A stretch of 64,000 nt of DNA, from sequence record OP172790. One strand, 5' to 3'. The notes beneath the pieces are model-generated. The model had not been told where the DNA came from. It saw only the letters and a program-made list of their open reading frames with translations, and made no database searches. The position numbers were made by a program, and so were the translations under genes. Source of the DNA: Escherichia phage ECO319P1. Of the stretch, positions 54,192 to 56,739 are shown one piece after another. Position 1 is the first letter of the stretch. Every line of letters starts with the position of its first letter.

Positions 54192-54632
54192 TTATTCACT
54201 AGGTGCGGGTTTTGGGTCACAAGATACCCGGCTTGAATCGCTAAACTCAAGACCTTTGTAAGTAACCTTAGCACCAACACGACCACCACCCTCTTTAACA
54301 CCAGTGATAGTTGCCTTGAGTGGGTCAGTACCATCTTTAGCAACAGTTACATAACCATCATCACCAGTATCAGGTTCCACAAACCAATCAACAGTATAAC
54401 CAGTACCAAGACCAGAAACAGTTGCTGTGATTTCAGCAGTACCTTCAACGACAAGACCAGATACGCTGGAAGTTGTTACAGAGCCATCAACAACGGTAAT
54501 TTTTACAGTTGCTTTCTTGGTTGGGTCTGTTTTAGCTGCAACAGTAATGTTGGCGCTACCAGCAGCAACGCCTTGTACATTAACAGTCTGAGCAGCTTTT
54601 GCAGCCAATGCTGCTTTGCTTACTCGTGCCAT
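54192..54632 (-). CDS. Ig-like (Big_2-like) domain protein, possible capsid decoration
   Basis: Thr/Val-rich beta-strand pattern; starts 2 nt after MCP2 stop with RBS inside MCP2 3' end. Confidence 0.6.
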   Translation of the reverse strand: MARVSKAALAAKAAQTVNVQGVAAGSANITVAAKTDPTKKATVKITVVDGSVTTSSVSGLVVEGTAEITATVSGLGTGYTVDWFVEPDTGDDGYVTVAKDGTDPLKATITGVKEGGGRVGAKVTYKGLEFSDSSRVSCDPKPAPSE

Positions 54633-54634
54633 TA

Positions 54635-55720
54635 TTAAGCTCCTTTAGCAATGGATTCATTATCAGACGTAACAGTAACTGTTTGGTCTGCATCTTCAGG
54701 GCTTACAGTAACAGACAGCGCAATTGTTTCACCAACTTTCACAAACTGCTCTGTACCACCTGCGATAGCAACAGATTCAACTGGAGGCTTCGGAGGGGTT
54801 ACACCCATTTTCAGAATACCAGATGCGAATGGGTTAGCATGGCGTAAGCCTACTTCCATTTCAATCATCCACTTCTCGTAGCTACCATCCTTAGCTAGTT
54901 TCACACGCTCTGGTGAACGGAGAACCATCTGAGTCCAATCTTTTGCACGGAAGAAGTAGATTGCATCCTGTGGCATCCAACGGTTAGGGATAAGTCGATA
55001 GCGCTGACCAAGTGGGTCAATGACTTCAGTTACATAAGCATTGAACTTAGTGTCCTTACCATCGAACATCTTAACTCGGTCACCTACACCAACTTCCATT
55101 AAGGAGCTGAAGAAGGAGGCATGTTTTGGATGGAACATGATGATATCAGCATGAGAGCCAGACAGATATAGATTATAAGTCAGACCCCAGATATCAGATT
55201 CGACAGGTTCATCACCAGCAATGCCTTTATGGACAACAGCGCCAGTATCTTCATCTGGTTCATCAAGACCAGCAACCAGAGATTCAAAACCACCAGTAAG
55301 TCGAGGTTTAGTACTCGCATCACCAGCATCTTTCTCTTGAGCAGACAGGAGGATTAACTCTAAGTCACGCTTCAGTTCTTTACCTGCCTTCTCCATTTGG
55401 TATTGCAGTTCACGACCGCGACCATAGTTTGCAAGAGCATTAGCAGTATCAGAAACCTTCAGGACTTTACGGAGAATCTGAGTATAGTTATTGAGAGTTG
55501 TAGTTGAGGCCAGAGCGCCATCGGCAGCAGTTGAACCTTCCACTACAGCATTATCGACAACAGCAGCGAGTGAGTCGGTCTGCCATTGGAAGAGTGTTTG
55601 GGCGATGGATTCTTTACCGGTCATACTAACAAACGGGGTGTCAGTTGGGGACAGGTTAGAAATCCAATTCGCAAACGAGAGTTTCTTACCATTTAGGTCA
55701 TATGAAACTAAAGTCGCCAT
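54635..55720 (-). CDS. major capsid protein paralog 2 with C-terminal Ig-like domain
   Basis: First 36 aa identical to paralog 1 and high similarity across approx 310 aa; extra approx 50 aa C-terminal Ig-like segment; AAAGGAG RBS. Confidence 0.8.
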   Translation of the reverse strand: MATLVSYDLNGKKLSFANWISNLSPTDTPFVSMTGKESIAQTLFQWQTDSLAAVVDNAVVEGSTAADGALASTTTLNNYTQILRKVLKVSDTANALANYGRGRELQYQMEKAGKELKRDLELILLSAQEKDAGDASTKPRLTGGFESLVAGLDEPDEDTGAVVHKGIAGDEPVESDIWGLTYNLYLSGSHADIIMFHPKHASFFSSLMEVGVGDRVKMFDGKDTKFNAYVTEVIDPLGQRYRLIPNRWMPQDAIYFFRAKDWTQMVLRSPERVKLAKDGSYEKWMIEMEVGLRHANPFASGILKMGVTPPKPPVESVAIAGGTEQFVKVGETIALSVTVSPEDADQTVTVTSDNESIAKGA

Positions 55721-55740
55721 TTATGTTTCTCCTTTCCTAT

Positions 55741-55774
55741 AAACACAAAAGGGAAGAGGAATAATCCTCCTCCC
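55741..55774 (-). terminator. rho-independent terminator between the two capsid paralogs
   Basis: On minus strand GGGAGGAGG-AUUAUU-CCUCUUCCC hairpin followed by TTTTGTGTTT, 27 nt after MCP1 stop. Confidence 0.65.
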
Positions 55775-55800
55775 TTAATCATTACTCAACGGTGTTGAGA

Positions 55801-56739
55801 TTATGCACCTGCTTTAACATCCAGAATGCCGGAAGCATATGGGTTGCGGTGACGCAGACCAACTTCCATCTCAATCATCCATTTTTCATAGGAACCATCT
55901 TTCGCCAGTTTGGTACGTTCTGGAGCGCGCAGTACCATCTGAGTCCAATCGCTTGGAGTGAAGAAGTACACAGACGCTTCAGGCATCCAACGGTTAGGAA
56001 CCAGTTTGTACTGGCAACCCAGAGGGTCAACAATACTGGAAACGTAAACGTTCAGGCGAGTGTCCTGACCATCAAACATCTTCATGCGCTGACCGTTAGT
56101 AACACCACTGGTTTCCATCAGAGAACTGAAGAAAGCAGCATGTTTCGGGTGGAACATGATAATGTTGGCTTCTGAACCGGACAGGTACAGGTTGTAAGTC
56201 AGGTCAAAGATTTCAGCTTCAGTCAGAGCAGCAGCTTTAGTCTCTTTATGAACAACAGCGCCAGTATCTGGGTCAGCAGCATCTTTAGCAGCTACCAGAG
56301 CGCTAAAGCCAGCAGTTTTACGAGCGGTAGAAGCATCGCCAGCAACCTGTGCACCGTTACGCAGAAGCGCAACTTCCAAGTCACGTTTGATTTCTTTACC
56401 AGCTTTTTCCATCTGGTACTGAAGTTCTTTACCACGGCCATAGTTCGCCAGAACGTTAGCAGTGTCAGACACTTTAACAACTTTACGCAGAATCTGAGTT
56501 ACGTTGTTCAGTACAGTGGTGGTTTTGCGGGTTTCATCAACAGCAGCAGAACCTTCAATCACTGCGTTCTTGTCGCTAGCCGGAGCCAGAGTATCAGTCT
56601 GCCATTGGAACAGAGTCTGATTAATTGCTTCTTTGCCAGTCATAGACACGAACGGAGTATCGGTCGGAGACAGGTTGGAAATCCAGTTGGCAAAAGAAAG
56701 TTTCTTACCATTCAGGTCATACGAAACGAGAGTAGCCAT
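55801..56739 (-). CDS. major capsid protein paralog 1
   Basis: AGAGGAG RBS; follows scaffold gene; 312 aa. Confidence 0.8.
   Translation of the reverse strand: MATLVSYDLNGKKLSFANWISNLSPTDTPFVSMTGKEAINQTLFQWQTDTLAPASDKNAVIEGSAAVDETRKTTTVLNNVTQILRKVVKVSDTANVLANYGRGKELQYQMEKAGKEIKRDLEVALLRNGAQVAGDASTARKTAGFSALVAAKDAADPDTGAVVHKETKAAALTEAEIFDLTYNLYLSGSEANIIMFHPKHAAFFSSLMETSGVTNGQRMKMFDGQDTRLNVYVSSIVDPLGCQYKLVPNRWMPEASVYFFTPSDWTQMVLRAPERTKLAKDGSYEKWMIEMEVGLRHRNPYASGILDVKAGA

What the first reader, a model, noticed from the sequence alone, without database searches (positions are those of the whole stretch)
54192..56739. Two paralogous major capsid genes, the second with an Ig-like extension, separated by a terminator
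The two proteins share an identical 36-residue N-terminus and a similar core, yet their DNA differs at synonymous sites, so both copies are old and maintained. The downstream copy carries an extra C-terminal Ig-like segment and is followed by a separate Ig-like gene. A strong hairpin terminator (55741-55774) between the copies would lower expression of the extended form. This achieves with duplication and termination what T7 does with a frameshifted capsid variant.
Basis: partly seen in the sequence, partly recalled or inferred. Interest (0 to 1): 0.6.

Follow-up and report, generated by a model that had tools for sequence, protein, structure and literature searches.

The report
Duplicated capsid gene with split Ig domain
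This prolate-headed phage has two old copies of its major capsid gene separated by a terminator hairpin, and the second copy carries only half of an Ig-like domain, with the other half encoded at the start of the next small gene.

Summary
On the minus strand lie MCP1 (55801-56739, 312 aa), a 12-bp hairpin with a U-rich tail (55739-55776), MCP2 (54635-55720, 361 aa) and ORF3 (54192-54632, 146 aa). Both capsid genes are SU10-type. They are 72% identical, synonymous sites are saturated (pS 0.70) and dN/dS is 0.1, so the duplication is old and both copies are maintained.

MCP2 and ORF3 are 100% identical to Escherichia phage ECO319P1 proteins; the DNA is 95% identical to Cronobacter phage A24. Public records already annotate two major head proteins in A24, GAP52 and Salmonella phage 7-11, and 7-11 has an annotated terminator between them.

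SU10, phiEco32 and Privateer make the same capsid-Ig fusion by a -1 frameshift at GGGAAAG, confirmed by mass spectrometry. Here a late-promoter match sits just upstream of MCP1, none sits before MCP2, the hairpin recurs in every two-copy lineage examined, and only MCP1 has strong codon bias.

The new point is that MCP2's extension is half a Big_2 domain. ORF3 supplies the other half. The cut is at the same loop in at least four diverged lineages, while close relatives keep the domain whole. No experiment here confirms termination, virion content or association of the two halves.

The parts
56831..56856 (-). Late-promoter match GTAATA-N16-ACTA, upstream of MCP1
   Evidence: Exact match to the phage 7-11 late-promoter consensus GTAAtg-N16-aCTA. 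The window has 10 matches against 1.69 expected. The 7-11 promoter upstream of its MCP1 (P8) was validated by primer extension, and GAP52 P107 is predicted as GTAATa-N16-ACTA (PMC8948821 and its Table S4).
55801..56739 (-). MCP1, the short SU10-type HK97 major capsid protein (312 aa, 34.3 kDa)
   Evidence: PF17236, E 2.7e-86. Matches the solved SU10 gp9 capsid protein, E 1.6e-108. It has the strongest codon bias of the structural genes tested: ENC 35.7, Fop 0.78. It has no slippery heptamer at its 3' end.
55739..55776 (-). T1, an intrinsic-terminator-like hairpin with an interrupted U tract between MCP1 and MCP2
   Evidence: The 80-nt spacer is 100% identical in A24 and GAP52. An equivalent GGGAGGAG/CTCCTCCC hairpin lies between the two capsid genes in 7-11, PKM.Lu.22.1 and BUCT695. 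The 7-11 record annotates a terminator at this position.
54812..55720 (-). MCP2 core (residues 1-303), a paralogous HK97 capsid core
   Evidence: 72% identical to MCP1, dN/dS 0.105. Codon bias is at the level of the portal and tail-fibre genes: ENC 43, Fop 0.58. Seven residues are shared by MCP2 of Crifsvirus and Moazamivirus but absent from MCP1 and from single-copy relatives.
54635..54811 (-). MCP2 C-terminal extension: a Pro-rich linker plus the first half of a Big_2 Ig-like domain, then the stop codon
   Evidence: Matches Big_2 model positions 10-46 of 79 at 19.4 bits, below the 22.8-bit cut-off. dN/dS is 0.08-0.34 against relatives.
54630..54648 (-). Junction: AAGGAG ribosome-binding site inside the last MCP2 codons, TAA stop, two bases, then the ORF3 ATG in the -1 frame
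   Evidence: Read directly from the sequence. About 80 nt around it are identical in the window, A24 and GAP52. No X XXY YYZ slippery site is present, and the -1 frame is closed by a TAA five codons before the ATG.
54489..54632 (-). ORF3 N-terminal part (residues 1-48): the second half of the same Big_2 domain
   Evidence: Alone it matches Big_2 positions 45-79 at 14.9 bits. Joined to the MCP2 tail it gives one hit over positions 10-79 at 28-29.6 bits, above the cut-off. In PHROG 1328, MCP2 covers profile positions 9-376 and ORF3 covers 373-494.
54192..54488 (-). ORF3 C-terminal part: a second beta-rich domain, probably Ig-like
   Evidence: The AlphaFold2 model is all-beta across residues 66-137 with pLDDT about 60-67, which is low confidence. 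The region is conserved in TacPo2, L014 and L015.
54137..54175 (-). T2, a second terminator-like hairpin followed by TTTTTT, after ORF3
   Evidence: stem -20.6 kcal/mol.

Best explanation
MCP1 is the bulk shell protein. It appears to be transcribed from its own late promoter and followed by a leaky intrinsic terminator (T1). MCP2 is an old paralogue that replaces, at the DNA level, the frameshift-extended minor capsid protein of related phages. Its mRNA would arise only by read-through of T1, so it would be made in smaller amounts, co-assemble into the prolate shell and place Ig-like domains on the outer surface. In this lineage the Ig array is built from two polypeptides. MCP2 ends in the first four strands of a Big_2-like domain. 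ORF3, translated from its own ribosome-binding site and ATG right after the MCP2 stop codon, supplies the helix and last three strands plus a second beta domain. I infer that the two halves complete one fold in trans and so anchor ORF3 to MCP2. Shown here: the paralogy, its age and the purifying selection on both copies; the conserved hairpin; the promoter match; the codon-bias asymmetry; the collinearity of the two half-domains with whole domains in relatives. Inferred: partial termination at T1, minor abundance of MCP2, its presence in virions, and association of the two halves.
For: Paralogy and age. Seven derived residues shared by MCP2 across genera place the duplication before the Crifsvirus/Moazamivirus split. 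Frameshift equivalents in relatives: the Privateer record annotates a 'minor capsid protein, frameshift from major capsid protein, verified via mass spectrometry'. SU10 and phiEco32 use GGGAAAG, and 38.5 and 55.4 kDa forms were detected. In TacPo2 the same PVESVAI... cassette lies in the -1 frame after a single capsid gene. Transcription: promoter match at 56831-56856 and none before MCP2. The next minus-strand match, 48734-48759 (GTAATC-N16-ACTA), has the same sequence as the promoter predicted upstream of GAP52 gene 98. T1 has the form of a terminator and recurs in five two-copy lineages. Expression proxies: MCP1 has ENC 35.7 and Fop 0.78, against 43 and 0.58 for MCP2. MCP1 is also better conserved across genera, 82.6% against 73.6% to the 7-11 orthologues. 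Split domain: Pfam and PHROG collinearity. Whole-domain equivalents occur in P0010, P0013, P0015, 7-11 and BUCT695. The same cut site with a ribosome-binding site and ATG occurs in L014, L015 and TacPo2, whose capsid protein is only 46% identical. Both halves are under purifying selection. In the AlphaFold2 model of the whole-domain relative P0013, the cut maps to a loop at residues 369-375, where the block 371-380 dips to pLDDT 79 inside a domain otherwise at 87-96.
Against: There are no transcript, proteomic or structural data for this phage or for A24 or GAP52. The SU10 cryo-EM map shows no density for the Ig part, so such domains may be sparse, flexible or lost. T1's U tract is interrupted, so its efficiency is unknown. 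In APT65 the equivalent hairpins have no U tract. The 28% divergence of the core, and four capsid paralogues in APT65, suggest the paralogues may do more than display Ig domains. The MCP2 clade has only 46% bootstrap support in a neighbour-joining tree. The ORF3 model is poor, mean pLDDT 50 from a 6-sequence alignment.
Confidence: 0.6

Rival explanations
1. MCP2 is a position-specialised shell subunit of the prolate head, for example at pentamers or caps, as gp24 is for gp23 in T4. The Ig tail would be secondary. T1 would then set a roughly 1:10 ratio for geometric reasons.
For: The gene order scaffold, MCP1, MCP2 matches T4 genes 22, 23, 24 (my own knowledge). The core differs at 28% of positions, with MCP2-specific residues conserved across genera, including 210 and 216 in a loop that is 3 residues shorter. 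APT65 has four tandem capsid paralogues, three of them with no extension. In SU10, pentamer and hexamer subunits differ in the N-arm, E-loop and annular loop.
Against: SU10 builds pentamers and all hexamer types from one protein. The N-arm is identical in MCP1 and MCP2. Relatives that use frameshifting put the same Ig cassette on a core identical to the bulk protein, which cannot be position-specific. This rival can also be true together with the main explanation.
Confidence: 0.2
2. MCP2 and ORF3 are joined during translation by a recoding event, either -1 frameshifting or a short ribosomal hop over the stop codon. This would give one 53.9-kDa capsid-Ig-Ig protein, as in 7-11.
For: ORF3 is in the -1 frame in all four split lineages. 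A strong ribosome-binding-site-like sequence lies directly before the stop codon. Short repeats flank the junction: GCT...GCA in the window, TVTG/TVTG in L015, AKV/AKV in TacPo2. About 80 nt around the junction carry no synonymous change across three phages.
Against: No X XXY YYZ heptamer is present. The -1 frame is closed by stop codons 5-8 codons upstream of the ATG in the window and in L014. The junction sequences are not conserved between lineages, apart from each having a well-spaced ribosome-binding site and ATG, which is what ordinary translational coupling looks like. Frame 0 has two stop codons in tandem.
Confidence: 0.07
3. The hairpin is mainly a 3'-end stabiliser or processing site for MCP1 mRNA, and MCP2 is transcribed at similar levels or from an unrecognised promoter. 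Dosage would then be set at translation or assembly, not by termination.
For: The U tract is interrupted (UUUUGUGUUU). The APT65 hairpins have no U tract at all. Essential low-copy genes downstream depend on the same transcript.
Against: 7-11 and PKM.Lu.22.1 have textbook terminators at this position, with 10-12 U. No late-promoter match lies in the spacer, and one-mismatch matches are at chance level. Codon bias separates MCP1 from MCP2.
Confidence: 0.1
4. The split is a degenerating remnant. A nonsense or frameshift lesion broke a formerly whole MCP2-Ig gene, and the pieces no longer work together.
For: Close relatives (P0010, P0013, P0015) and 7-11 have whole versions.
Against: The same cut, with a ribosome-binding site and ATG, is kept in lineages whose capsid proteins are only 46-63% identical. 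dN/dS is 0.0-0.34 for both halves. Both halves still match the Big_2 profile, and together they pass its cut-off.
Confidence: 0.03

Closest known systems
Salmonella phage 7-11 genes 8 and 9 (Moazamivirus), and the A24 and GAP52 records (Crifsvirus)
   Same: Same gene order: scaffold, 312-aa MCP1, terminator hairpin, longer MCP2. All are annotated 'major head protein' twice, and 7-11 has an annotated rho-independent terminator between them. A promoter upstream of the 7-11 MCP1 was validated by primer extension (PMC8948821).
   Different: The 7-11 MCP2 is one 585-aa protein with whole Big_2 domains. In the window, A24 and GAP52 it is cut into 361 + 146 aa inside a domain. I found no paper that discusses the function of the pair. 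Parra 2023 only mentions 'two putative major capsid proteins'.
Kuravirus (SU10, phiEco32) and Privateervirus capsid-Ig fusion made by a -1 programmed frameshift at GGGAAAG
   Same: Same SU10-type capsid protein. The same outcome: a minority of subunits carry C-terminal Ig-like domains. A terminator follows the unit.
   Different: No slippery site is present here. The long form comes from a separate, 28%-diverged gene copy, and the ratio would be set by transcription termination rather than by ribosome slippage.
T7 gene 10A/10B
   Same: A major and a minor capsid form that share the N-terminal body, with a terminator (T-phi) just after the capsid gene that reduces transcription of downstream genes (my own knowledge).
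   Different: T7 uses a -1 frameshift in a single gene. 10B adds a short, non-Ig tail and is dispensable. The T7 capsid protein belongs to a different family.
T4 gp23 and gp24, a major capsid protein and its vertex paralogue
   Same: Tandem paralogous HK97-fold capsid genes downstream of the scaffold gene in a prolate-headed phage (my own knowledge).
   Different: The T4 pair is far more diverged and gp24 has a defined position at the vertices. No positional data exist here, and MCP2 carries an Ig tail.
Donor-strand complementation in chaperone-usher pili
   Same: An incomplete Ig-like fold in one polypeptide is completed by N-terminal strands of another (my own knowledge). This is the proposed logic for MCP2 and ORF3.
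   Different: In pili a single strand is donated. Here roughly half a domain (a helix plus three strands) would be supplied. There is no homology to pilins, and no physical evidence for a complex.

Membership tests
SU10-type HK97 major capsid protein (PF17236) | Profile match above the curated cut-off | tested here: met
   MCP1 scores 290 bits and MCP2 256 bits, against a 24.1-bit cut-off.
SU10-type HK97 major capsid protein (PF17236) | Similarity to the solved SU10 gp9 capsid structure | tested here: met
   MCP1 against PDB 7z45 gives E 1.6e-108. The AlphaFold2 model of the MCP2-type relative P0013 has SU10 capsid chains as its top Foldseek hits, E 1.8e-24.
SU10-type HK97 major capsid protein (PF17236) | Head-module gene order: portal, small ORF, scaffold, capsid, adaptor | tested here: met
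   SU10_portal at 58137-60581 and SU10_adaptor at 52937-53638.
SU10-type HK97 major capsid protein (PF17236) | Both proteins are present in the virion shell | not testable with these tools
   Requires virion mass spectrometry or cryo-EM.
Frameshift-generated minor capsid protein (T7 10B, SU10 gp9+10, Privateer) | Slippery heptamer near the 3' end of the capsid gene | tested here: not met
   MCP1 ends GTT AAA GCA GGT GCA TAA and MCP2 ends GCT AAA GGA GCT TAA. Neither has GGGAAAG or any X XXY YYZ site.
Frameshift-generated minor capsid protein (T7 10B, SU10 gp9+10, Privateer) | Ig-like ORF in the -1 frame continuing from the capsid gene | tested here: not met
   The terminator follows MCP1 directly. 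In MCP2 the Ig sequence is in frame.
Frameshift-generated minor capsid protein (T7 10B, SU10 gp9+10, Privateer) | A long form that shares the capsid body and adds a C-terminal surface domain | tested here: met
   Met through paralogy: the core is 72% identical and a Big_2-type tail is added.
Frameshift-generated minor capsid protein (T7 10B, SU10 gp9+10, Privateer) | The long form is the minority species | tested here: inconclusive
   Only indirect evidence: the terminator, the absence of a promoter match and the weaker codon bias of MCP2.
Big_2 bacterial Ig-like domain (PF02368) | A complete domain within one polypeptide, scoring above the cut-off | tested here: not met
   MCP2 scores 19.4 bits over model positions 10-46. 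ORF3 scores 14.9 bits over positions 45-79. The cut-off is 22.8 bits. Only the concatenation passes, at 28-29.6 bits over positions 10-79.
Rho-independent terminator | GC-rich stem-loop followed by a U tract, on the transcribed strand, downstream of a stop codon | tested here: met
   12-bp stem with 6 GC pairs and tail UUGUGUUUAU. z-score -3.85.
Rho-independent terminator | Transcript 3' ends form there in vivo | not testable with these tools
   Requires Term-seq or a Northern blot.
T4 gp24-type vertex paralogue | Occupies pentameric vertices only | not testable with these tools
   Requires cryo-EM. Only the gene order and the paralogy are met.
Trans-complemented (donor-strand type) Ig fold | Two polypeptides each carry an incomplete, complementary part of one Ig fold | tested here: met
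   Pfam and PHROG collinearity. Alignment to relatives with whole domains. In the P0013 model the cut falls in a loop.
Trans-complemented (donor-strand type) Ig fold | The two chains form a physical complex | not testable with these tools
Requires AlphaFold-Multimer or a pull-down.

The most novel reading that the evidence does not exclude
The MCP2 tail and ORF3 form a naturally split Ig-like (Big_2) domain that reassembles in trans. A small decoration protein would be fastened to a minor capsid paralogue by supplying half of the fold. This split cassette is a conserved, horizontally exchanged module that different phages attach to the capsid in different ways: apparently by a -1 frameshift in TacPo2, and by gene duplication plus in-frame fusion in the Crifsvirus-like phages and the L014 and L015 lineages.
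Probability: 0.4. Interest if true: 0.7.

Novelty: new variant of a known kind. Interest (0 to 1): 0.5.

Why it matters
One phage group offers three routes to the same result, a minority of shell subunits bearing Ig-like domains. The routes are ribosomal frameshifting, gene duplication with a transcription attenuator, and duplication with the Ig domain split across two proteins. This lets translational and transcriptional control of subunit ratios be compared directly. It also lets one ask what a diverged capsid paralogue adds to a prolate shell. If the split Big_2 domain does reassemble in trans, it would be a natural split-domain docking system on a capsid. That would be of interest for phage display and capsid engineering, and for understanding how decoration proteins evolve from fused domains. 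The two-gene arrangement itself is already annotated in public records, so the new content is the interpretation and the split domain.

Tried and rejected
I used the whole-domain relative P0013 as a proxy instead.
- ORF3 on its own gave a poor model, mean pLDDT 50, so I did not run a fold search on it.
- A PDB sequence search with the concatenated Ig region gave only chance-level hits, E > 0.2.
- An Rfam scan of 53500-57000 found nothing significant; the best hit had E 0.25.
- The late-promoter search with one mismatch gave 50 matches against 50.4 expected, so it is uninformative.
- The sigma-70 promoter scan was at chance level, 15 found against 16 expected.
- The IMG/VR scan for ORF3 relatives returned one short locus.
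- Recent gene conversion as the reason for the identical N-termini was rejected. Synonymous divergence there (pS 0.70) equals that of the rest of the gene, and the N-arm is conserved across the whole family.
- A -1 frameshift or stop-codon read-through at the MCP2/ORF3 junction was rejected as the main route. There is no slippery site, the -1 frame is closed just upstream, and frame 0 has tandem stop codons.
- The neighbour-joining tree did not resolve the MCP2 clade well (46% bootstrap), so I counted shared derived residues instead.
- The 2011 genome paper for 7-11 (PubMed 21107618) is not held.
- The SU10 structure paper gives no residue numbers for the annular loop, so MCP2-specific changes could not be mapped onto it.
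Full report
**1. What is there**

All genes of the region are on the minus strand.
- Portal: 58137-60581.
- Small ORF: 57897-58136.
- Acidic scaffold protein: 56881-57897.
- MCP1: 55801-56739 (312 aa).
- 80-nt spacer.
- MCP2: 54635-55720 (361 aa).
- ORF3: 54192-54632 (146 aa).
- Short ORF, then the adaptor: 52937-53638.

Pfam assigns both capsid genes to SU10_MCP (E 2.7e-86 and 9e-76). The flanking genes match SU10_portal and SU10_adaptor. MCP1 matches the solved SU10 capsid protein at E 1.6e-108.

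MCP2 and ORF3 are 100% identical to proteins of Escherichia phage ECO319P1. At the DNA level the closest phage record is Cronobacter phage A24 at 94.8%, then GAP52 at 88%. Both are Crifsvirus, family Grimontviridae.

**2. Checking the observation**

MCP1 and MCP2 are 72% identical (E 2e-167). The first 37 residues are identical, yet 21 of the 111 nucleotides differ. Synonymous divergence is saturated in that block and in the rest of the gene alike (pS 0.70, dS about 2), and dN/dS is 0.105. The copies are therefore old, both are under purifying selection, and there has been no recent gene conversion. The identical N-terminus is not special to this pair, because the same N-arm is nearly invariant across the family, SU10 included.

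The hairpin lies at 55749-55776. It is AAGGGAGGAGGA-UUAU-UCCUCUUCCCUU followed by UUGUGUUUAU. The stem folds at -20 kcal/mol. The spacer has z -3.85 against shuffles, and none of 200 shuffles folded as well.

**3. What was already known**

The records of A24, GAP52 and Salmonella phage 7-11 each annotate two 'major head proteins'. The 7-11 record also annotates a rho-independent terminator between them. [quoted passage not shown] I found no paper that discusses the function of the pair.

Tandem SU10-type capsid genes are common in this group:
- BUCT695 has two.
- PKM.Lu.22.1 has two, the second of 778 aa.
- APT65 has four.
- LAh_9, Privateer, SU10 and TacPo2 have one.

**4. Evidence on mechanism**

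*(a) Relatives make the long form by frameshifting.* SU10 and phiEco32 have a GGGAAAG slippery site that fuses the capsid protein to an Ig-like ORF, and forms of 38.5 and 55.4 kDa were detected by mass spectrometry (PMC4281155). Privateer has G GGA AAG TAA, and its 'minor capsid protein' was verified by mass spectrometry (PMC7881722). In the window neither capsid gene has a slippery site.

Seven derived residues are shared by MCP2 of Crifsvirus and Moazamivirus, and BUCT695 MCP2 shares some of them. Privateer's single capsid protein has neither the MCP2-specific residues nor the MCP1-specific ones. The simplest history is a frameshifting ancestor followed by one old duplication. The downstream copy then became fused in frame to the Ig cassette, and the upstream copy lost the slippery site. 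The neighbour-joining tree is compatible with this but weak, with 46% support for the MCP2 clade.

[quoted passage not shown] The promoter upstream of 7-11 gene 8 (MCP1) was validated by primer extension, and a matching site is predicted upstream of GAP52 gene 107 (MCP1) (PMC8948821 and Table S4). The window has an exact match, GTAATA-N16-ACTA, at 56831-56856, just upstream of MCP1. There are 10 matches in the window against 1.69 expected.

There is no match in the MCP1-MCP2 spacer. The next minus-strand match is at 48734-48759 (GTAATC-N16-ACTA), the same sequence as the promoter predicted upstream of GAP52 gene 98. MCP2, ORF3, the adaptor and the tail genes down to that point would therefore depend on read-through of T1 and of a second hairpin, T2, at 54137-54175. 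T1 is best seen as an attenuator that separates the roughly 700-copy shell protein from everything downstream, as T-phi does after T7 gene 10 (my own knowledge).

*(c) Conservation of the hairpin.* The 80-nt spacer is identical in the window, A24 and GAP52. Equivalent hairpins lie between the two capsid genes in two metagenomic relatives (L011, L012), in 7-11 and PKM.Lu.22.1 (followed by 10-12 U), and in BUCT695. The APT65 hairpins have no U tract.

*(d) Expression proxies.* MCP1 has the strongest codon bias of the structural genes tested (ENC 35.7, Fop 0.78). MCP2 is at the level of the portal and tail fibre (ENC 43, Fop 0.58). The set of optimal codons used for Fop came from memory, so that figure is approximate. 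MCP1 is also better conserved between genera, 82.6% against 73.6% to the 7-11 orthologues.

**5. The unexpected part: a split Ig-like domain**

MCP2 residues 323-358 match only Big_2 model positions 10-46 of 79, at 19.4 bits, below the 22.8-bit cut-off. ORF3 residues 10-43 match positions 45-79 at 14.9 bits. Joining the two gives one hit over positions 10-79 at 28-29.6 bits. In PHROG 1328, a 583-position 'major head protein' profile, MCP2 covers positions 9-376 and ORF3 covers 373-494.

The junction reads GCT AAA GGA GCT TAA TA ATG GCA. It holds an AAGGAG ribosome-binding site 7 nt before an ATG in the -1 frame, tandem stop codons in frame 0, no slippery heptamer, and a TAA that closes the -1 frame five codons upstream of the ATG. 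This is ordinary translational coupling, so two polypeptides are the default reading.

The split is not an accident. Four lineages have the same cut, each with its own ribosome-binding site and ATG:

| Lineage | End of upstream ORF | Start of next ORF |
|---|---|---|
| Window, A24, GAP52, L011, L012 | ...SDNESIAKGA* | MARVSKAALAAKAAQTVNVQGVAAG... |
| L014 | ...SSAPTIADKV* | MATQNVTISGKASG... |
| L015 | ...SSITAVATVTGG* | MSIHNYTVTGVASG... |
| Pantoea phage TacPo2 | ...SSIATAKVV* | MAKVELTGVDSG... |

TacPo2's capsid protein is only 46% identical to MCP1. Both halves are under purifying selection, with dN/dS 0.0-0.34.

Relatives whose MCP2 core is 80-93% identical to the window's (P0010, P0013, P0015), as well as 7-11 and BUCT695, carry whole domains. 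P0013 reads ...SDKESVATVAPAAAKGKTKAALAAVANKF..., which is the uncut equivalent of the window's two ends.

An AlphaFold2 model of P0013 has mean pLDDT 74.8, and its Ig domain 1 scores 87-96. It places the cut in the loop at residues 369-375, between a strand (364-368) and a short helix (376-381). Four strands lie upstream of the cut, and the helix plus three strands lie downstream. Confidence dips to 79 in residues 371-380, which include most of the cut loop. ORF3 modelled alone has pLDDT below 50 for residues 1-65, but its alignment is shallow.

I infer that the halves complete one fold in trans and so dock ORF3 onto MCP2. This could not be modelled and is not shown.

In TacPo2 the same cassette (PVESVAIQG...) follows a single capsid gene in the -1 frame after GTA AAG TAA. 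The cassette therefore seems to be attached by frameshifting in one phage and by duplication plus fusion in others.

**6. Rival explanations**

- MCP2 could be position-specialised, at vertices or caps, as T4 gp24 is. The 28% divergence of the core, the MCP2-specific residues around a shortened loop at 208-216, and the four paralogues of APT65 point that way. Against this, SU10 builds every capsomer type from one protein, and the N-arm is unchanged. This rival can hold together with the main model.
- A recoding event that joins MCP2 and ORF3 is unlikely but not excluded. The -1 frame relation is constant, short repeats flank the junction, and about 80 nt are invariant.
- The hairpin might mainly stabilise MCP1 mRNA.
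- Decay of a broken gene is contradicted by the conservation described above.

**7. Verdict**

It still lacks direct experimental support.

The two-gene arrangement itself is already in public annotation. The added value is twofold. First, it works as a DNA-level replacement for a programmed frameshift. Second, the Ig domain is split between two genes as a conserved cassette. I rate this a new variant of a known kind, of moderate interest.

Noticed in passing
L007 (Aeromonas phage APT65, OP491958.1) 3043-7237: Four tandem SU10-type capsid paralogues of 310, 310, 307 and 428 aa. Only the last has a C-terminal extension, and it is not Big_2-like. Short hairpins without U tracts lie between the second, third and fourth genes. 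This hints at position-specialised capsomers in a prolate head.
   Followed up: partly
window 15644, 18013, 24424, 29457, 36047 (+) and 40938, 43488, 48734, 56831, 63247 (-): Ten exact matches to the phage 7-11 late-promoter motif GTAA-N18-ACTA, against 1.69 expected by chance. The strand matches the two divergent gene clusters. This is probably the late-promoter set of this phage, recognised by a phage-encoded sigma factor.
   Followed up: partly
window 55721-55800 and about 54590-54670: The 80-nt MCP1-MCP2 spacer and about 80 nt around the MCP2/ORF3 junction are 100% identical in the window, A24 and GAP52. The adjacent MCP2 core has dS 0.86 against GAP52. This suggests constraint at the nucleotide level (terminator, ribosome-binding sites, perhaps RNA structure) or recent recombination.
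   Followed up: partly
L015 about 4040-4160; L010 about 3960-4030: Short repeats flank the split junction: ...ATVTGG* then ...YTVTGVASG in L015, and ...TAKVV* then MAKVELTG in TacPo2. They could be a duplication scar from the event that created the split, or matched take-off and landing codons for a ribosomal hop. This is unexplained.
   Followed up: no
window 53821-54117 (-): The 98-aa ORF after T2 (MADVPSPLYKLNYP...) matches only positions 1-97 of the 418-position PHROG 20917. Its BUCT695 homologue is 405 aa and looks by eye to have Ig-like repeats, and A24 annotates 202 aa at this position. This looks like another modular head-proximal protein whose length varies between relatives.
   Followed up: no
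L010 (Pantoea phage TacPo2, PP496723.1) 3580-3650: The single capsid gene ends GCG GTA AAG TAA, and an Ig-like ORF is open in the -1 frame from just after a TGA. This is an imperfect version of the GGGAAAG site of SU10 and Privateer. The record annotates every gene in this region as hypothetical and marks no frameshift.
   Followed up: partly
proteins P0010, P0013, P0015 against window MCP2: Crifsvirus-like contigs of about 75 kb carry MCP2 cores 80-93% identical to the window's, but with a different, whole 230-aa Ig array (EGGTPPGDKLSIDK...). The C-terminal display module therefore seems to be exchanged by recombination independently of the capsid core.
   Followed up: partly
L002 (GAP52, NC_019402.1) 6968-8711: The GAP52 portal gene is annotated as two overlapping CDS, whereas the window and A24 have one 814-aa ORF. 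This is probably a sequencing frameshift in that record.
   Followed up: no
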